From IMG/VR virus record IMGVR_UViG_2529293217_000011: DNA of 20,446 bases; one strand, 5' to 3'. Shown one piece after another: positions 529 through 18,325 of this stretch (within the stretch, counting starts at the first letter, position 1; each line of letters starts with the position of its first letter). Position numbers and translations under genes: made by a program. This DNA comes from a virus. Its lineage: Duplodnaviria; Heunggongvirae; Uroviricota; Caudoviricetes. The notes under the pieces are model-generated. The model was not told the DNA's origin. It searched no databases and saw nothing but the letters and a program-made list of their open reading frames with translations.

Positions 529-605
529 TGGCGCGTTGTAGTGGAGTCGAACCACTGACCGATTGCTTAGAAGGCAATTGCTCTGTCCGGCTGAGCTAAC
601 AACGC
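529..605 (-). tRNA. tRNA-Arg (anticodon TCT)
   Basis: 77-nt cloverleaf read by hand on the - strand: 7-bp acceptor stem GCGTTGT/ACAACGC, D-arm GCTC/GAGC, anticodon stem ATTGC/GCAAT with loop CTTCTAA (anticodon TCT), T-arm AGTGG-TTCGACT-CCACT, encoded CCA. Resembles the argN/argO-type tRNAs carried downstream of Q in lambdoid/Stx phages. Confidence 0.8.
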
Positions 606-705: not shown

Positions 706-781
706 TGGTGGCCCTTGCTGGATTTGAACCAGCGACCTGGCGATTATGAGTCGCTCGCTCTCACCACTGAGCTAAAGGGCC
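706..781 (-). tRNA. tRNA with anticodon CAT, ileX/ileZ-like (tRNA-Ile2; Met cannot be excluded)
   Basis: 76-nt cloverleaf on - strand: acceptor GGCCCTT/AAGGGCC, anticodon loop CTCATAA, T-loop GGTTCAAATCC, encoded CCA. Close to the E. coli ileX sequence as I recall it. Confidence 0.8.
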
Positions 782-2361: not shown

Positions 2362-2780
2362 TTCTCAATCTCTCGATGGCGCAGTGCAGCAGATGCCAGT
2401 TGTTCAAGCTAGCACGCAAATTGTAAACCAGAATGCCAGGAAAAAACAAAACCCGCCGAAGCTGGTTGTGTGCGGTTGCGTTGAAGTCTCCTAGCCAAAG
2501 AGTAGCGGTGACCACTCCCCGCCGATAATCTTAGTTGTTTAATTTCGTAAGCTAACTAGGCTAAAAGCTCTCTGTTGTCTGCCTGTTGTACAATTAACAA
2601 AATGAACAACGAACTAGATATACCAACGCCAGAATGGTGCAACAAATCCCAAACAACACAGCAATGCAACAATAACATATGTTATTTTCCTCTCACGGGA
2701 TTCAGTCCTGAATTCTCATAAAGCTAATCTTTTTTTAAAAACATACTGTTAGATCACATGCACTTTCTTTCTTAACATCG

Positions 2781-2808
2781 TTGACTTCGCATGCGAAGCG
2801 TTTAAAAT
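2781..2808 (+). promoter_or_regulatory. Sigma70-type promoter for the GHKL ATPase operon with an embedded 14-bp perfect palindrome
   Basis: TTGACT (2781-2786), 16-bp spacer, TAAAAT (2803-2808), about 50 bp upstream of the ATG at 2861; the spacer contains the perfect palindrome CTTCGCATGCGAAG (2785-2798). Confidence 0.5.
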
Positions 2809-2860
2809 CAACAATTTGCACTTAAGGTATTTATTTTCCCAAACACATAGAGAGTAAATT

Positions 2861-4252
2861 ATGACTGAGAACACGACTCCAACAGCAGACTTTAGTCCTA
2901 GTAAAAGATTTTTTGTAAGTATGCTAACTCGAGATATCGACTTAAACGATGCCATACTTGATCTGCTTGATAACTGCGTCGATGGGGCTTTACGTACAAT
3001 AAAAGACACAAAAAAAACTTCAAAACCATATGAAGGATTTTATGCGAAACTTACGATTAATAAAGATGTCTTTATTATAGAAGACAATTGCGGAGGTATC
3101 CCTAAAAGCTTCCGAGAATATGCTTTTAAAATGGGACGACCCCATCAAAAAGAAGAAGAAAATGAAGGCACCGTTGGCGTCTATGGTATTGGTATGAAAA
3201 GAGCCATTTTTAAAATGGGTAGAGATTGCTCAATACAATCGAATAATCCCGATGGCGCATTCACTGTAGATATAACACCTGATTGGATCGATGGTGATGG
3301 TTGGAAAATACCGATGCACGAGAGTGACTATGATAACAAAAATCCAACAGGCACAACTATAGAGATAAAAAAACTCCATTCTAATGTGGCACAAAAATTT
3401 AATGAGAGCACATATCTTACTGATCTCTTTTTACAGATAAAACACTCATTGTCATTTATTATTCAAAAAGGATTTAAAATAGAATTAAATGGAGTTGTTG
3501 TTGAACATAATCCGATTAACATCATAACTGATCATTCTAAAATAGAACCATACATATATAAAGCTAAAATAGACGATGTTGATATCGATTTAGTTGTTGG
3601 CTTCTATAAAAATTTAGAAGATGACAATGATGATGTTTTAGAAAAAAGGAGTTCTGATGATGCTGGATGGACTGTCATTTGCAATGACCGCGTTGTTCTA
3701 TATTGTGATAAGACACATCTCACAGGTTGGGGCTTTGCTAATGTACCAAGGTTTCATACCCAATTTATAGCAATTTCTGGGGTTGTTCGCTTTACCAGTA
3801 AAAACCCAGAAAAATTACCAATAACAACAACGAAACGAGGTGTCGATCTTAGTTCTACATTGTACAATGATGTACGAAATAAAATGATTGAAGGGATGAT
3901 GCATTTTATTCGATTCACCAATCAGTGGAAAGGTGAGCATCTTGAAGAAGGGAAAAAATTACTTAAGTCAGCTCAGTCACATGAAGCTCAATCTTTATTT
4001 GAAATTACCCCACAATCAACTCCAGAAGATAAAAAAAATAACTGGTCCAACCCTAATAGAAACAAAAATGAGTGGCGATATACACCTAAGCTGCCTACCC
4101 CAGTAAAAAAAAGCTCTACTGTACGAATAATCTTCACCAGAGAGAAAGAAGATGTTAAAATTTTATCTAAATATTTCTTTGGACATGAAGATGCTAGCGC
4201 TTCTGATGTGGGGATGCAATGCTTTGATACGGTGATTGAAGAGGTGAAGTGA
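2861..4252 (+). CDS. GHKL-superfamily (Bergerat-fold) ATPase, MORC/MutL-like N-terminal domain, 463 aa
   Basis: N-terminal motifs read directly from the translation: motif I LDLLDNCVDGA (cf. MutL ELVENSLDA), motif II IEDNCGGIP (DNGxGI), motif III GVYGIGMKRAIF, motif IV NPTGTTIEI. About 290 C-terminal residues with no motif I recognise. Low-GC coding sequence. Confidence 0.8.
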   Translation: MTENTTPTADFSPSKRFFVSMLTRDIDLNDAILDLLDNCVDGALRTIKDTKKTSKPYEGFYAKLTINKDVFIIEDNCGGIPKSFREYAFKMGRPHQKEEENEGTVGVYGIGMKRAIFKMGRDCSIQSNNPDGAFTVDITPDWIDGDGWKIPMHESDYDNKNPTGTTIEIKKLHSNVAQKFNESTYLTDLFLQIKHSLSFIIQKGFKIELNGVVVEHNPINIITDHSKIEPYIYKAKIDDVDIDLVVGFYKNLEDDNDDVLEKRSSDDAGWTVICNDRVVLYCDKTHLTGWGFANVPRFHTQFIAISGVVRFTSKNPEKLPITTTKRGVDLSSTLYNDVRNKMIEGMMHFIRFTNQWKGEHLEEGKKLLKSAQSHEAQSLFEITPQSTPEDKKNNWSNPNRNKNEWRYTPKLPTPVKKSSTVRIIFTREKEDVKILSKYFFGHEDASASDVGMQCFDTVIEEVK

Positions 4253-5241
4253 TGTCTGGACAATACATTCCCTATCACTTAAGGCATAATAAGTCTATTG
4301 ATAGAGAGATTTTTCTCGAAAGCCTAAACCTCTTAAGCAAAAGACTAAATATTCAAGAATATACATATATAGGTTTTGGTGGTCCGATGCTTGAAGATTT
4401 TAGAATCATGCATAATCGTATCGCTCTTTCTGATATGATTTCTCTCGAAGAACAAGAGTCTACTCACATCAGACAAAAATATAATTTGCCTTATAATTGT
4501 ATTGATTGTAAGCTAATATCAGCTCATGACTTTATTCTTGATTATAGTTTTTCTAAACCATCAATAACATGGTTAGACTATGCCTCCCCGAAAAAAATAC
4601 AAACGGATCTAGATGATATACACTTACTAAGTACTAAAGTAAGCTCTTTTGATATTTTGAAGGTCACCTTCCCCATAAATCCTAGTTCTTATTACCAACG
4701 TAGAGTTGGAGAAAGTTTAGATATTTTTAAAGAAGCTTTTATTAATTCATTAAAATCATTGCTTGGGAAAAAGTATCTTGATTTTAATCTTCAGATATCA
4801 AATGCAGATCTTTCAGATCGTAAGATTAAAGCTCTTTTAATACGAATTATTACAAACGCTTTTAGATCAGCAATAGAACGTGGTCTTTCAGGACGTAAGG
4901 ATAAGATTCAGTATTACCCATTATCCTTAAATCAATATAATGATGGCAGTCATACCATGTTGACAATATCAGGTTTTTTCTCCTCAGAACAAGAATATAT
5001 AGAGTTATCTAAGGCATGCGACCTTTCTAACTGGCAATTTTATTCAACAAATTGGGAAGACGTGCAAGAAATAGCAATACCAACACTAACAATTAAAGAA
5101 AAGATAAATTTAGATAGTAAACTGCCTGATAAAGAAGCATATCAGGCAGCCGCTGAAGAGTTCTCTTTAAACGAAAATGAACGGGATAACTATTATAAAT
5201 ACTATAGGTTATACCCTAACTTCCAAAGAATTATGGTTTAA
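4252..5241 (+). CDS. Hypothetical protein, about 330 aa, translationally coupled partner of the GHKL ATPase
   Basis: ATG at 4252 overlaps the TGA stop of the ATPase gene (TGATG); the ORF track starts it at GTG 4249. AT-rich like its neighbour. No catalytic motif (PD-(D/E)xK, HNH, PLD) could be assigned by eye. Confidence 0.7.
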   Translation: MSGQYIPYHLRHNKSIDREIFLESLNLLSKRLNIQEYTYIGFGGPMLEDFRIMHNRIALSDMISLEEQESTHIRQKYNLPYNCIDCKLISAHDFILDYSFSKPSITWLDYASPKKIQTDLDDIHLLSTKVSSFDILKVTFPINPSSYYQRRVGESLDIFKEAFINSLKSLLGKKYLDFNLQISNADLSDRKIKALLIRIITNAFRSAIERGLSGRKDKIQYYPLSLNQYNDGSHTMLTISGFFSSEQEYIELSKACDLSNWQFYSTNWEDVQEIAIPTLTIKEKINLDSKLPDKEAYQAAAEEFSLNENERDNYYKYYRLYPNFQRIMV

Positions 5242-6360
5242 ATATTCGGGCTGTACTCTTTTATTTAATAAATTGTACAGCCCCTTTAATATATATTCAG
5301 CAACTATTGGTGACACGCTATTTCCTATTTGTCTGAAACTATGCCATTTAGTTACATGAAAGCGAAACCAATCAGGGAAGCCTTGTAATCTAGCAGCTTC
5401 TCTTGGTGTAATCACTCTTGGATGATAAGGGTGGATCGGCCTGACGGCTTGAAAGCTTCCTTTATCTCTAGCGGTTCCCGCCCTTAAAGTCGGGCAAAAA
5501 CCATTTGGATCTAATCTTGTAGATCTTGAAATTTTATCAGTTTCCCCAAAAGATAAGGAAGCATAACGCTCTTGGACGATTTTGCTATGTAATGTTCCGG
5601 TACATCCAGATATGATATTATTTTTTAACTTAGCGATCGATTCTGTATCACCAACATTCCGAGGGATCTGCCCCCATAATTTTTCATAAAATCCCCCTTT
5701 TCGATCTTTTTTAATTGTTCGCCAACTCTCAGAGTCTGATTGCCAATTGGCATCGATAATATCTGGTAATCCATACAAAGCATCTTTTACAGTAACCGGA
5801 TCAATCATTTTAGGCATAAATACTTCATCTGAAATATCAAGCTTCAATGATTTTTTTACACCGATAAAAAAATATCTAGTTCGAATAGTTGGAGCACCAT
5901 AATCAGATGCTTTTACCTTGATGGGATCAAGAATATCATAATCACCGCTAACCAAATTAAATGCTTTATTTCTAATGCCAGAATATTTCTCTTGCATAAT
6001 ACCTGGAACATTTTCTGCCAAAAAGAATAATGGCTGTAATTCTGATACTAAACGGTAGAAATGCATGTAAAGCTGATTCCTGCTATCATCAGGATTCCCC
6101 TTGCCTATTGAACTAAATCCTTGGCACGGAGGACCGCCAATAATACCATCTATGGGCATATCGTTTTTAAAAAAACCCTTAATTATTTCTGCATTTAGTA
6201 AAGAAACATCTTCTTGGACGTGCAAACTTCTTGGAAAATTAATTGCGTGAGTATTAATAGCATGTTGATCAATTTCAACTGCCATTTTAACATCAAATCC
6301 AGCACGTGCAGCACCAAGACTTAGACCTCCAACGCCAGAAAACAAATCTATTACATTCAT
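5209..6360 (-). CDS. DNA (cytosine-5)-methyltransferase, 383 aa
   Basis: Canonical C5-MTase motifs: motif I DLFSGVGG, motif IV GGPPCQGFS (catalytic PCQ), ENV, C-terminal motif X QIGNSVSP. The 3' end overlaps the convergent partner gene by 33 bp (5209-5241). Confidence 0.9.
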   Translation of the reverse strand: MNVIDLFSGVGGLSLGAARAGFDVKMAVEIDQHAINTHAINFPRSLHVQEDVSLLNAEIIKGFFKNDMPIDGIIGGPPCQGFSSIGKGNPDDSRNQLYMHFYRLVSELQPLFFLAENVPGIMQEKYSGIRNKAFNLVSGDYDILDPIKVKASDYGAPTIRTRYFFIGVKKSLKLDISDEVFMPKMIDPVTVKDALYGLPDIIDANWQSDSESWRTIKKDRKGGFYEKLWGQIPRNVGDTESIAKLKNNIISGCTGTLHSKIVQERYASLSFGETDKISRSTRLDPNGFCPTLRAGTARDKGSFQAVRPIHPYHPRVITPREAARLQGFPDWFRFHVTKWHSFRQIGNSVSPIVAEYILKGLYNLLNKRVQPEYLNHNSLEVRV

Positions 6361-6392
6361 ATAGTTGCAACGTCTCTTATTAGTTTCTATGT

Positions 6393-6401
6393 ATTATAAC
6401 A
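6393..6401 (-). promoter_or_regulatory. Extended -10 element (TGtTATAAT) upstream of the methyltransferase gene
   Basis: On the - strand TGTTATAAT lies about 33 nt upstream of the MTase ATG (6360) in an AT-rich leader. Confidence 0.4.
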
Positions 6402-6791
6402 CAACTGTTCTTGATGTTTTAACCCCATAAGATAACCTCATAAAGGCTATCCCTTGAAAATACCGGATCGCATAAATTTAATCTTTCAAAACTACTTGTC
6501 TATTAATCGAGCAATTTAAGGTTGTTTTAGTCATGTCGATACCGACATAGTTAACTAAACCCATTTCATCGTCCAACAAATGGGGGTAATACACTTTGAT
6601 TTATAGTCGGGTGGGTTTTTCTCTATCTGCCTTTGGTGTTCATGCCCAAGGCAGATAGCCTCAAGCACCCGCAGCAATTCTACTTAACTATCCTTTTCCC
6701 GCAAATCGTTTTTATCCCCAGCGGCAAATCGAATACACAACCAGCGCCACCGCCATCGCAATTCCTACCGTTGTGAATGCTTCAGGCCAGG

Positions 6792-17949: not shown

Positions 17950-18099
17950 ATGAGATATGACAATGTTAAACCATGTCCATTTTGTGGTTGTCCATCAGTA
18001 ACGGTGAAAGCCATTTCAGGATATTACCGAGCGAAGTGTAACGGATGCGAATCCCGAACCGGTTATGGTGGAAGTGAAAAAGAAGCACTCGAACGATGA
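17950..18099 (+). pseudogene. ralR: ralR (lar, restriction alleviation), truncated at codon 50 by in-frame TGA; frame continues to 18144
   Basis: MRYDNVKPCPFCGCPSVTVKAISGYYRAKCNGCESRTGYGGSEKEALER then TGA (18097-18099), then in frame NKRTTGNNNGGVHV and TAA. The K-12 RalR I recall is 64 aa with TGG (Trp) at this position. Confidence 0.7.
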
Positions 18100-18136
18100 A
18101 ATAAACGAACCACTGGAAATAATAATGGAGGTGTTC

Positions 18137-18325
18137 ATGTATAAAATTACCGCCACTATTGAAAAGGAAGGTGGCACTCCTACTAACTGGACAAGATATT
18201 CAAAATCTAAACTAACGAAATCAGAATGCGAAAAAATGCTCTCAGGTAAAAAAGAAGCAGGCGTTTCCAGAGAGCAGAAAGTAAAACTGATAAATTTTAA
18301 TTGCGAGAAACTTCAGTCCTCGTGA
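18137..18325 (+). CDS. ydaC: YdaC-like protein, 62 aa as encoded (in-frame TGA, then 6 further sense codons)
   Basis: MYKITATIEKEGGTPTNWTRYSKSKLTKSECEKMLSGKKEAGVSREQKVKLINFNCEKLQSS then TGA (18323-18325), then in frame IALYSN and TAA (18344-18346). The K-12 YdaC I recall is 69 aa ending SSRIALYSN. Confidence 0.7.
   Translation: MYKITATIEKEGGTPTNWTRYSKSKLTKSECEKMLSGKKEAGVSREQKVKLINFNCEKLQSS

What the first reader, a model, noticed from the sequence alone, without database searches (positions are those of the whole stretch)
5209..6360. Prophage-borne C5-cytosine methyltransferase convergent with the ATPase operon
The MTase is encoded opposite to the two-gene operon and overlaps its 3' end. It has its own putative extended -10 promoter (TGTTATAAT, 6393-6401) and a long structured leader region. 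It could be the modification half of an R-M-like system with the ATPase and partner as a two-subunit restriction component. Alternatively it is an orphan anti-restriction methylase of the phage and the neighbours are unrelated.
Basis: partly seen in the sequence, partly recalled or inferred. Interest (0 to 1): 0.55.

Follow-up and report, generated by a model that had tools for sequence, protein, structure and literature searches.

The report
Prophage methylase tied to bacterial MORC
The prophage cytosine methylase is real and is not a stand-alone gene: it is one part of a widely spread, uncharacterised three-gene cassette that also holds a bacterial MORC-type ATPase and a methyltransferase-like partner, probably a restriction-modification-like immunity module with no recognisable nuclease.

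Summary
The ORF at 5209-6360 (-) is an intact C5-cytosine DNA methyltransferase. It is the CP-933R prophage protein of E. coli O157:H7, already crystallised as PDB 3G7U. It converges on a two-gene operon and overlaps it by 33 nt. A TGTTATAAT extended -10 lies at 6401-6393. The "long structured leader" is not supported.

The neighbours are not unrelated. The "ATPase" (2861-4252) is a bacterial MORC: it carries the MORC signature motif, and its best structural matches are MORC3, SMCHD1 and MORC2. The "partner" (4252-5241) is Pfam PF20553, a class-I SAM-methyltransferase fold, not a nuclease.

- In 80 loci from many phyla, MORC sits directly upstream of the partner in 79; the remaining locus is cut at a contig end. 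A Dcm lies within about 3 kb in 67.
- In viral contigs, 50 of 50 partner-seeded loci carry the Dcm. All 47 Dcm relatives at 59% identity or more carry the pair.
- In 5,426 E. coli genomes, the one strain lacking the methylase also has a truncated partner.

So the orphan reading is rejected and functional linkage is strongly supported. What the MORC-partner pair does to unmarked DNA is inferred, not shown. The module is missed by PADLOC, and I found no experimental study of it.

The parts
5209..6360 (-). C5-cytosine DNA methyltransferase (383 aa). It is identical to the CP-933R protein crystallised as PDB 3G7U. It runs in the same direction as the prophage early-right (PR-type) operon.
   Evidence: PF00145 at 2.6e-61; MTase_II at 2e-98. 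(3G7U, E 1.3e-254). (RefSeq WP_001100703.1, 'DNA cytosine methyltransferase').
2861..4252 (+). Bacterial MORC-family GHKL ATPase (463 aa). GHKL motifs: D34-x3-N38, DNCGG, GVYGIGMK. S5/transducer domain carries the MORC signature G269-WTVICND-R277-VV and the QTK-like TTTK325. A roughly 130-aa helical C-terminal region has no known relative.
4252..5241 (+). Partner protein (329 aa from ATG 4252; an in-frame GTG lies at 4249). Pfam PF20553 Methyltransf_35. Class-I SAM-methyltransferase fold with invariant GFGGPxLEDF (motif I-like), S64-L-E66 (motif II-like), W107-L-D109-Y110 (motif IV position) and N-terminal PYHLRxNK. Its start overlaps the ATPase stop (TGATG), and a GAGG Shine-Dalgarno lies 7-8 nt upstream.
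5209..5241 (.). 33-nt overlap of the convergent 3' ends of the partner and the methylase. There is no terminator between them. This arrangement is kept in enterobacterial and phage-borne versions.
   Evidence: Convergent with 3' overlap in 48 of 50 viral contigs and in many genomic loci, with overlaps of 6-50 nt. No terminator-like site between the genes.
6393..6422 (-). Candidate promoter of the methylase: -35 TTAAAA, 18-nt spacer, extended -10 TGTTATAAT. It is about 32 nt upstream of the ATG at 6360.
   Evidence: 10 of 12 matches plus TG. Partly conserved in relative L095. A motif match only; function not shown.
2781..2808 (+). Candidate promoter of the MORC-partner operon: TTGACT, 16-nt spacer, TAAAAT. 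It is 53 nt upstream of the ATG at 2861.
   Evidence: 10 of 12 matches. A motif match only.
2414..6612 (.). Low-GC (about 34%) cargo island of about 4.2 kb that holds only these three genes, inserted in the nin region of the prophage. The right edge abuts sequence that in phage 933W flanks the hokW/sokW cassette.
   Evidence: GC 0.33-0.36 against about 0.45-0.53 in the flanks. (homology to Rac-like phages ends at about 2410-2413). (homology to 933W starts at 6613). (no flanking repeats).

Best explanation
The methylase is the self-marking arm of a compact, horizontally mobile three-gene module: C5-cytosine methyltransferase, MORC-family GHKL ATPase and a PF20553 SAM-methyltransferase-fold partner. 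It works like a restriction-modification system but has no canonical nuclease.

Shown here: the three gene identities and folds; the near-obligate linkage; tighter co-variation of MORC with the partner than of either with the Dcm; translational coupling of MORC and partner; and carriage in cargo slots of temperate phages.

Inferred: the methylase puts 5mC on resident DNA at a still unknown motif. MORC and the partner form a complex in which the MORC dimer is an ATP-gated DNA clamp and the SAM-binding partner supplies DNA or base recognition. The complex acts on DNA that lacks the mark, meaning incoming phage or plasmid DNA, or the host chromosome after the cassette is lost. It would do so either by recruiting a nuclease (HNH genes lie next to the module in about 12% of loci) or by non-nucleolytic entrapment or blocking of the DNA.

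In this prophage the methylase points the same way as the PR early operon. It would therefore be boosted on induction and mark progeny DNA. The MORC-partner operon is antisense to PR and converges on the methylase, so it would be expressed mainly in the lysogen from its own promoter.
For: - Linkage in genomes: the MORC ATPase lies immediately upstream of the partner in 79 of 80 loci spanning Proteobacteria, Cyanobacteria, Acidobacteria, Verrucomicrobia, Chloroflexi, Latescibacteria, Poribacteria, Firmicutes and one archaeon. A Dcm homologue lies within about 3 kb in 67 of 80.
- Linkage in viral contigs, both directions: 50 of 50 partner-seeded contigs carry the Dcm. All 47 contigs whose Dcm is at least 59% identical carry MORC and partner. 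None of the 12 with a Dcm at 46% identity or less do.
- E. coli: the pair is in 173 and the methylase in 172 of 5,426 complete genomes. The single discordant strain, F6294, has one deletion that removes the methylase and the C-terminal two-thirds of the partner.
- Co-variation of identity matrices over 64 triplets: MORC-partner r = 0.78, MORC-Dcm 0.40, partner-Dcm 0.31.
- Coupling: stop/start overlap TGATG with a GAGG Shine-Dalgarno.
- Folds: MORC and SAM-methyltransferase.
- The only recurrent extra genes are Vsr (22 of 80 loci), the usual companion of an active Dcm, and HNH endonucleases (10 of 80).
- Cargo context: the island fills the slot where 933W carries hok/sok. In the filamentous Pseudomonas phage PfAC20 the same three genes sit in the accessory region where sibling Pf phages carry TA, IetAS, Avs, Kiwa, ShosTA or retron systems (PMC11878078).
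- Iyer et al. 2008 predicted that MORC plus DNA-methylase neighbourhoods without helicases are R-M systems (PMC2292703).
Against: - In 7-8 informative loci (Nostoc/Scytonema-type cyanobacteria, a Beggiatoa relative, a myxobacterium) the pair has no methylase within 7 kb. An orphan restriction arm is the opposite of what classical R-M systems show.
- Partner and Dcm co-vary only weakly.
- The GHKL general base is Asp, not Glu, throughout the clade, so ATP turnover may be slow.
- PADLOC does not recognise the pair.
- I found no experiment, and the methylation motif is unknown.
Confidence: 0.55

Rival explanations
1. Orphan phage methylase. The Dcm only protects phage DNA from host restriction or serves as an epigenetic regulator, and the ATPase operon next door is unrelated cargo.
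For: Phage-borne orphan methylases are common. PADLOC calls only the methylase, and a published Pf-phage survey scored the same cassette as an 'incomplete' R-M with the methylase alone. The gene runs with the PR operon, so it would be expressed on induction.
Against: The methylase is strictly found with the MORC-partner pair: 47 of 47 and 50 of 50 viral contigs, 67 of 80 genomic loci and 172 of 173 E. coli genomes. The convergent 3' overlap is conserved. Ordinary Dcm relatives at 46% identity or less lack the pair.
Confidence: 0.04
2. A repair or epigenetic-maintenance module rather than immunity. The MORC, a MutL relative, and its partner would read or process 5mC sites made by the Dcm. Examples would be helping very-short-patch repair of T:G mismatches with Vsr, or compacting or silencing methylated DNA as eukaryotic MORCs do.
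For: Vsr is the commonest extra neighbour, in 22 of 80 loci. The ATPase is closest to MORC3, MORC2 and SMCHD1 and related to MutL. There is no nuclease. The pair is stably placed between ndhD-like genes in several cyanobacteria without a linked methylase. From my own memory, E. coli MutL stimulates Vsr.
Against: All 50 phage-borne copies lack Vsr. The patchy cross-phylum distribution, with a Dcm 50-64% identical between phyla and even in an archaeon, points to a selfish or defensive mobile cassette. It sits in cargo slots otherwise used by toxin-antitoxin and defence systems. No repair role is known for a SAM-methyltransferase-fold subunit.
Confidence: 0.15
3. The partner is a catalytically active second methyltransferase acting on DNA or RNA, and it is the effector. 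The MORC-partner complex would methylate a harmful position on unmarked DNA, or on rRNA or tRNA, in an abortive-infection-like way. Alternatively the cassette is a two-methylase modification-only device used by phages as counter-defence.
For: The SAM-binding motif residues are invariant: GFGGP, E66 and D109. The best structural matches are nucleic-acid methyltransferases: RsmD-like, Trm1, RlmI/RlmO and RlmJ. No nuclease is present. The partner is the fastest-evolving of the three proteins (mean pairwise identity 35%, against 46% for MORC and 47% for the Dcm).
Against: The motif IV position reads W-L-D-Y-A rather than the (D/N/S)PP(Y/F/W) of amino-methyltransferases. There is no sequence-level match to any characterised methyltransferase. 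A modification-only device would not need an ATP-driven MORC clamp.
Confidence: 0.15

Closest known systems
MORC- and paraMORC-associated restriction-modification systems predicted by Iyer, Abhiman and Aravind 2008 (PMC2292703)
   Same: A prokaryotic MORC with the GhXhhpXXRhl signature lies next to a cytosine methylase, often with Vsr, sometimes with an HNH endonuclease or a second paraMORC1-like GHKL. Distribution is patchy and horizontally mobile. That paper notes a minority of neighbourhoods that combine MORC with methylases or restriction enzymes but lack a helicase, which fits this cassette.
   Different: The text I could read does not describe the PF20553 partner, which is the most tightly linked gene here. 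Most MORC systems in that paper carry an SF2 helicase and a nuclease, and this cassette has neither. That work was purely computational.
Classical Type II m5C restriction-modification systems (for example HaeIII-type)
   Same: A C5-methyltransferase with all catalytic motifs (M.HaeIII is the nearest solved relative apart from the protein itself) is tightly linked to a second activity. The gene arrangement is convergent. The cassette is compact and mobile, and Vsr is an occasional companion.
   Different: There is no recognisable endonuclease. The second arm is a MORC ATPase plus a methyltransferase-fold protein. The second arm can occur without a linked methylase.
C5-MTase, GHKL (HEF_HK paraMORC), RR-like (Response_reg_2) and Vsr modules (Genome Biol Evol 2021, PMC8011034)
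   Same: The gene order and logic match: a Dcm upstream of a GHKL ATPase and a small partner, with Vsr often next. This is the order seen in most non-proteobacterial loci here.
   Different: The families differ. The window proteins do not match PF19191 or PF19192. The ATPase is a true MORC, and the partner has a SAM-methyltransferase fold rather than a receiver-like domain.
BREX and DISARM (methylation-based exclusion systems)
   Same: Self is marked by a methyltransferase (DISARM uses the C5-methylase DrmMII, to which this methylase scores 4e-47), ATPase components are present, and for BREX the exclusion has no demonstrated DNA cleavage (the last point is from my own knowledge).
   Different: None of the BREX or DISARM marker proteins is present, and PADLOC gives no hit for the ATPase or the partner. 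This cassette has three genes rather than four to eight.
Eukaryotic MORC and SMCHD1 silencing ATPases that act with DNA methylation
   Different: There is no CW zinc finger or coiled coil. The general base is Asp instead of Glu. The cassette is encoded with its own methylase and a methyltransferase-fold partner on a mobile element. Whether it reads methylated or unmethylated DNA is unknown.

Membership tests
C5-cytosine DNA methyltransferase (Pfam PF00145 / TIGR00675) | Full-length profile match above the curated cut-off | tested here: met
   PF00145 at 208 bits (cut-off 22), profile positions 1-322 of 324. TIGR00675 at 156.9 bits (cut-off 100.65).
C5-cytosine DNA methyltransferase (Pfam PF00145 / TIGR00675) | Catalytic motifs: motif I FxGxG, motif IV PCQ with the nucleophilic Cys, motif VI ENV, motifs IX and X | tested here: met
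   DLFSGVGG, GGPPC79QGFS, E116NV and RVITPREAARLQGFPD...QIGNSVSP, read from the translation. The protein is identical to solved structure 3G7U.
C5-cytosine DNA methyltransferase (Pfam PF00145 / TIGR00675) | Demonstrated 5mC formation at a defined motif | not testable with these tools
   No methylome data were available, and no paper in the library assigns a motif.
MORC family of GHKL ATPases (Iyer et al. 2008) | Four GHKL nucleotide-binding motifs | tested here: met
   D34-x3-N38, D75-N-C-G-G, G106-x-Y-G-I-G-M-K and G164-T are invariant in 23 sequences. HATPase_c_3 at 2.9e-9. Caveat: the general base is Asp, not Glu.
MORC family of GHKL ATPases (Iyer et al. 2008) | S5-fold transducer domain with a conserved basic residue | tested here: met
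MORC family of GHKL ATPases (Iyer et al. 2008) | MORC-specific GhXhhpXXRhl motif in the S5 domain | tested here: met
   G269-W-T-V-I-C-N-D-R277-V-V fits the pattern. G269, W270, T271, C274, N275, D276 and R277 are invariant. The pattern is quoted from PMC2292703.
MORC family of GHKL ATPases (Iyer et al. 2008) | Closer to MORCs than to other GHKL families | tested here: met
PF20553 (Methyltransf_35, 'putative O-methyltransferase') | Profile match above the gathering score | tested here: met
   300.4 bits (cut-off 27), profile positions 1-308 of 309.
PF20553 (Methyltransf_35, 'putative O-methyltransferase') | Class-I SAM-dependent methyltransferase fold with SAM-binding motifs | tested here: met
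PF20553 (Methyltransf_35, 'putative O-methyltransferase') | Methyl-transfer activity and an O-atom acceptor | not testable with these tools
   The name is a database label. No characterised member was found.
Type II restriction-modification system | Cognate methyltransferase tightly linked to the second component | tested here: met
Type II restriction-modification system | A restriction endonuclease with a recognisable nuclease fold (PD-(D/E)xK, HNH, GIY-YIG, PLD or half-pipe) | tested here: not met
   No nuclease family or fold is found in the ATPase or the partner. The island has no other gene. HNH genes are adjacent in only 10 of 80 related loci.
Type II restriction-modification system | Restriction of unmodified DNA and protection by the methylase | not testable with these tools
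   This needs experiments. The only hint is strain F6294, which lost the methylase together with most of the partner.
Orphan (solitary) phage methyltransferase | Occurs without conserved partner genes | tested here: not met
   47 of 47 viral contigs with a Dcm at 59% identity or more carry MORC and partner. The Dcm is never found alone among 5,426 E. coli genomes.
Known anti-phage systems in PADLOC-DB v2 (BREX, DISARM, Druantia, Hma and others) | Marker proteins of the system are present | tested here: not met
   The ATPase and the partner give 0 hits. The methylase hits generic MTase_II best, and DruM and DrmMII more weakly.
paraMORC / HEF_HK with Response_reg_2 modules (PMC8011034) | PF19191 and PF19192 domains | tested here: not met
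   Pfam reports only HATPase_c_3 and HATPase_c for the ATPase, and Methyltransf_35 for the partner.

The most novel reading that the evidence does not exclude
A nuclease-free, MORC-based epigenetic immunity system in bacteria and archaea. 5mC written by the cassette's own Dcm would mark self. A MORC clamp, guided by a SAM-binding methyltransferase-fold reader, would topologically trap, compact or chemically mark unmethylated incoming DNA without cutting it. This would be a living prokaryotic counterpart, and possibly the ancestor, of the eukaryotic partnership between cytosine methylation and MORC/SMCHD1 silencing. It sits in a genetically tractable E. coli O157:H7 prophage.
Probability: 0.22. 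Interest if true: 0.85.

Novelty: new variant of a known kind. Interest (0 to 1): 0.62.

Why it matters
The methylase gene on its own is ordinary: it is annotated and has even been crystallised. The cassette it belongs to is not.

- It is a minimal pairing of cytosine-5 methylation with a true MORC ATPase. It is spread across at least nine bacterial phyla and one archaeon, and across lambdoid and filamentous prophages.
- Current defence-system finders miss it. A published survey scored the same cassette as an "incomplete R-M" (PMC11878078).
- If it excludes foreign DNA, it would add a defence type whose effector is not an obvious nuclease.
- It would also make the 2008 hypothesis directly testable in E. 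coli. That hypothesis holds that eukaryotic MORC silencing descends from bacterial methylation-linked conflict systems.
- It may affect phage susceptibility, prophage stability and the 5mC methylome of EHEC O157:H7 and O111 lineages, about 3% of complete E. coli genomes.

Tried and rejected
- Structured leader or riboswitch upstream of the methylase: folding z-scores of -1.2 and -0.06 and no Rfam family. Rejected.
- A hok/sok toxin-antitoxin upstream: the match to 933W covers only the backbone next to hokW/sokW (window 6613-6795). No hok or mok ORF is present. Rejected as part of the feature, though it defines the island's right edge.
- Membership in a known defence system: PADLOC gives no hits for the pair.
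- HEF_HK / Response_reg_2 module: those domains are absent.
- Flanking repeats or att-like sites around the island: none found.
- An alternative methylase beside the Dcm-less loci: the neighbours are housekeeping genes, transposition genes or helicases.
- Defence-island enrichment around the module: the flanks are mostly unrelated genes, and only Vsr, HNH and mobile-element genes recur.
- Literature on PF20553, 3G7U, bacterial MORC or an O157 5mC motif: nothing experimental was found.
- Foldseek against AFDB: the library was not available.
- The methylation motif could not be inferred. The target-recognition region is only moderately conserved, at 0.33-0.51 per 20-residue block.
Full report
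**What is in the window**

The window is 100% identical to the Rac-like lambdoid prophage CP-933R of E. coli O157:H7 EDL933. Its early-right operon runs on the minus strand: Cro-like regulator, ydaT, replication genes, nin-type DUF1367 and DUF1364 genes, and a Q-like gene. A block of about 34% GC interrupts it, in flanks of 45-53% GC. Homology to other Rac-like phages stops at about 2410-2413. On the right, homology to phage 933W starts at 6613. The island, about 2414-6612, holds exactly three genes.

**Checking the observation**

The ORF at 5209-6360 (-) is an intact C5-cytosine methyltransferase.
- It matches PF00145 at 2.6e-61 over the whole profile, TIGR00675 at 9.6e-46 and PADLOC MTase_II at 2e-98.
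- Motifs I, IV (PCQ, Cys79), VI (ENV), IX and X are readable in the translation.
- It is the protein crystallised as PDB 3G7U (E 1.3e-254).

It converges on the + strand operon and overlaps it by 33 nt, 5209-5241. TGTTATAAT is on the minus strand at 6401-6393, with a TTAAAA -35 element 18 nt upstream.

Promoter-like matches are no more frequent here than in shuffled sequence (19 against 17.0 +/- 4.5). The element is kept as TGATAGAAT in an 85%-identical relative but not in more distant ones. It is therefore a reasonable candidate only.

The "long structured leader" fails. The leader implied by that promoter is about 25-30 nt and unstructured (z = -0.06). The 273-nt upstream stretch gives z = -1.2. 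Rfam finds nothing. Beyond 6613 the sequence is phage backbone shared with 933W, where it borders hokW/sokW.

**The neighbours**

Neither protein shows a nuclease domain by any method. PADLOC does not recognise either. PHROGs lists both as function unknown.

The partner's start overlaps the ATPase stop (TGATG) behind a GAGG Shine-Dalgarno. This implies coupled translation.

**Linkage**

I seeded a scan of one genome per species with the partner alignment and obtained 80 loci. They come from Proteobacteria, Cyanobacteria, Acidobacteria, Verrucomicrobia, Chloroflexi, Latescibacteria, Poribacteria, Firmicutes and a Methanoregulaceae archaeon.
- The MORC gene lies directly upstream on the same strand in 79. 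The exception is cut by a contig end.
- A Dcm homologue lies within about 3 kb in 67.
- Two layouts dominate. In about 33 loci, mostly non-proteobacterial, the order is Dcm-MORC-partner in one direction. In about 17 loci, enterics and xanthomonads, the Dcm is downstream and convergent, as in the window.
- Of the 13 loci without a Dcm, five or six are truncated contigs. The rest are Nostoc/Scytonema-type cyanobacteria (the pair sits between ndhD-like genes), a Beggiatoa relative, and a myxobacterium where SNF2-type helicases flank the pair.

In IMG/VR, 50 of 50 partner-seeded viral contigs have the Dcm, and 48 show the convergent overlapping layout. Seeding with the Dcm instead gives the same answer. 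All 47 contigs whose Dcm is at least 59% identical carry MORC and partner. The 12 with a Dcm at 46% identity or less carry neither, and about half of those carry Vsr.

In 5,426 complete E. coli genomes the pair is present in 173 and the methylase in 172, all at 99% identity or more and all chromosomal. The one discordant strain, O157:H7 F6294, has a single deletion that removes the methylase and the C-terminal two-thirds of the partner. This is one case only. It is what one expects if the methylase cannot be lost while the pair is intact.

Over 64 complete triplets, pairwise-identity matrices correlate at r = 0.78 for MORC and partner. The values are 0.40 for MORC and Dcm and 0.31 for partner and Dcm. 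MORC and partner form the co-evolving core, and the Dcm is swapped more freely. Two Dcm classes are seen: 46 loci at 47% identity or more to the window's Dcm, and 18 at 36-45%. The partner evolves fastest (mean identity 35%, against 46% for MORC and 47% for the Dcm).

The partner family has about 1,750 clusters at 50% identity with E of 1e-10 or better, and the 150 best-scoring members are single-domain proteins of 280-381 aa.

**Other neighbours**

Clustering the flanking ORFs and scanning 150 of them against Pfam shows few recurrent extras:
- Vsr, in 22 of 80 loci;
- HNH endonucleases, as HNH_2 in 6 loci and HNH_5 in 4;
- a second, longer MORC-like GHKL next to the Dcm in 8 loci, which fits the paraMORC1 of Iyer et al.

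The remaining flanks are housekeeping or mobile-element genes such as terminase, integrase, TniQ/TniB and TrwB. Vsr is the standard companion of an active Dcm, so it argues that these methylases really modify the resident genome.

**Cargo context**

In 933W the equivalent position holds the hok/sok post-segregational killing cassette.

The only sequenced phage isolate in GenBank with a partner homologue is the filamentous Pseudomonas phage PfAC20. There the ATP-binding protein, the hypothetical protein and the cytosine methyltransferase occupy the accessory end of the genome. The paper describing it lists TA, IetAS, Avs, Kiwa, ShosTA and retron systems in sibling Pf phages. It scores PfAC20 as carrying only an incomplete R-M system, the methylase alone (PMC11878078). 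This supports a defence or addiction role by location. It also shows that present tools do not see the cassette. The module is rare on plasmids (2 of 72,556).

**Mechanism: what is shown and what is inferred**

Shown: the identities and folds, the linkage, the co-variation, the translational coupling, the conserved convergent overlap and the cargo position.

Inferred:
- The Dcm marks resident DNA with 5mC.
- MORC and partner form a complex, with an ATP-gated MORC dimer as a DNA clamp and the SAM-binding partner as a DNA or base reader.
- The complex acts on DNA that lacks the mark.
- The outcome is either cleavage by a recruited nuclease or non-nucleolytic trapping.

The methylase runs with the PR operon and the MORC operon runs against it. 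I therefore expect methylase expression to rise and MORC-partner expression to fall on prophage induction.

I give this R-M-like reading 0.55. My confidence that the three genes form one functional unit is much higher, about 0.9.

The main evidence against the R-M-like reading is the absence of any nuclease and the existence of pairs without a nearby methylase.

The rivals are:
- a repair or epigenetic-maintenance module built around a MutL-like MORC and Vsr (0.15);
- an active second methyltransferase as effector, or a modification-only device (0.15);
- an orphan methylase with unrelated neighbours (0.04, contradicted by the linkage data).

**Comparison with what is known**

The closest description is the class of MORC-associated R-M systems predicted by Iyer, Abhiman and Aravind in 2008. 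That work notes a minority of neighbourhoods that combine MORC with methylases or restriction enzymes and lack a helicase, sometimes with paraMORC1, HNH or Vsr. The ATPase passes all the MORC membership features I could test.

The cassette fails one defining feature of a Type II R-M system, the nuclease, so I do not file it there.

It parallels the C5-MTase, GHKL (HEF_HK), RR-like and Vsr modules of PMC8011034 in layout but not in families. It shares with BREX and DISARM the idea of methylation-marked self without an obvious cutter, but none of their marker proteins.

I found no experimental study of PF20553, of 3G7U or of any bacterial MORC in the searchable library.

**Verdict**

The methylase itself is already known and ordinary. 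Its context is an uncharacterised variant of an R-M-like system: Dcm, a true MORC and a methyltransferase-fold partner, with no nuclease. It is widely distributed and sits in a tractable E. coli prophage.

- Novelty: new variant of a known kind.
- Interest: 0.62.
- Most novel reading not excluded: a nuclease-free, MORC-based epigenetic immunity system ancestral to eukaryotic methylation-MORC silencing. Probability about 0.22; interest if true 0.85.

Noticed in passing
window 18143-18321 (-) and 18065-18325 (+): RalA antitoxin sRNA (Rfam RF02694, 225 bits) lies antisense to a ralR-like ORF. This is the type I toxin-antitoxin pair of Rac-type prophages.
   Followed up: no
window 529-605 (-) and 706-781 (-): Two prophage-borne tRNA genes lie downstream of the Q-like gene. 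One is tRNA-Arg (TCT). The other has a CAT anticodon, which ARAGORN calls Met and RefSeq annotates as Ile.
   Followed up: no
window 6613-6795: This stretch is 92% identical to the 933W segment that borders mokW/hokW and touches the annotated end of sokW, but no hok or mok gene follows. The three-gene island occupies the slot where 933W carries hok/sok. An unannotated 27-aa hydrophobic ORF (6712-6795, minus strand, MTWPEAFTTVGIAMAVALVVYSICRWG) starts in an ATGA overlap with the stop of the upstream gene.
   Followed up: partly
window 2386-2484: A 99-bp stretch at the left edge of the island is about 90% identical to sequence annotated 'mobile element protein' in phages Evi and vB_EcoS-640R1. 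It may be an IS remnant marking the insertion point.
   Followed up: no
L013, L014, L017, L018, L022, L024, L030, L035 (for example L013:8061-9824 -): A second, longer MORC-like GHKL ATPase (546-610 aa, with the FxCNDRVIV motif and an extra C-terminal domain) sits next to the Dcm in these loci. It fits the paraMORC1 of Iyer et al. 2008. In seven of these eight loci the Dcm belongs to the class that is 36-45% identical to the window's.
   Followed up: partly
L002, L004, L008 (pair at about 5550-7990); L048:1746-11504: In Nostoc/Scytonema-type cyanobacteria the MORC-partner pair sits between ndhD-like genes with no methylase within 7 kb. In a myxobacterial locus the pair is flanked by an SNF2-type helicase and a 1,198-aa helicase instead of a Dcm.
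   Followed up: partly
L083 (E. coli O157:H7 F6294, NZ_CP038372.1 2823915-2824283): A natural deletion removes the methylase together with the C-terminal two-thirds of the partner and leaves the MORC gene intact. It is the only one of 173 cassette-bearing complete genomes without the methylase.
   Followed up: yes
L193 (Pseudomonas phage PfAC20, PP058144.1 280-3711): The same three-gene cassette, all on one strand, lies in the accessory region of a filamentous Pf prophage. The describing paper scored it as an incomplete R-M system with the methylase alone.
   Followed up: yes
L010 and L012; L178:6103-7096: L010 carries two complete MORC-partner pairs and L012 carries two tandem MORC genes. In viral contig L178 the partner is split into two ORFs, which could be a frameshift or a sequencing error.
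   Followed up: no
window 2960-2974 (ATPase residues 34-38) and alignment A2: The GHKL general-base position is an invariant Asp (D34) rather than the Glu of MutL, GyrB and eukaryotic MORCs. This suggests slow ATP turnover, which would suit a clamp or switch.
   Followed up: no
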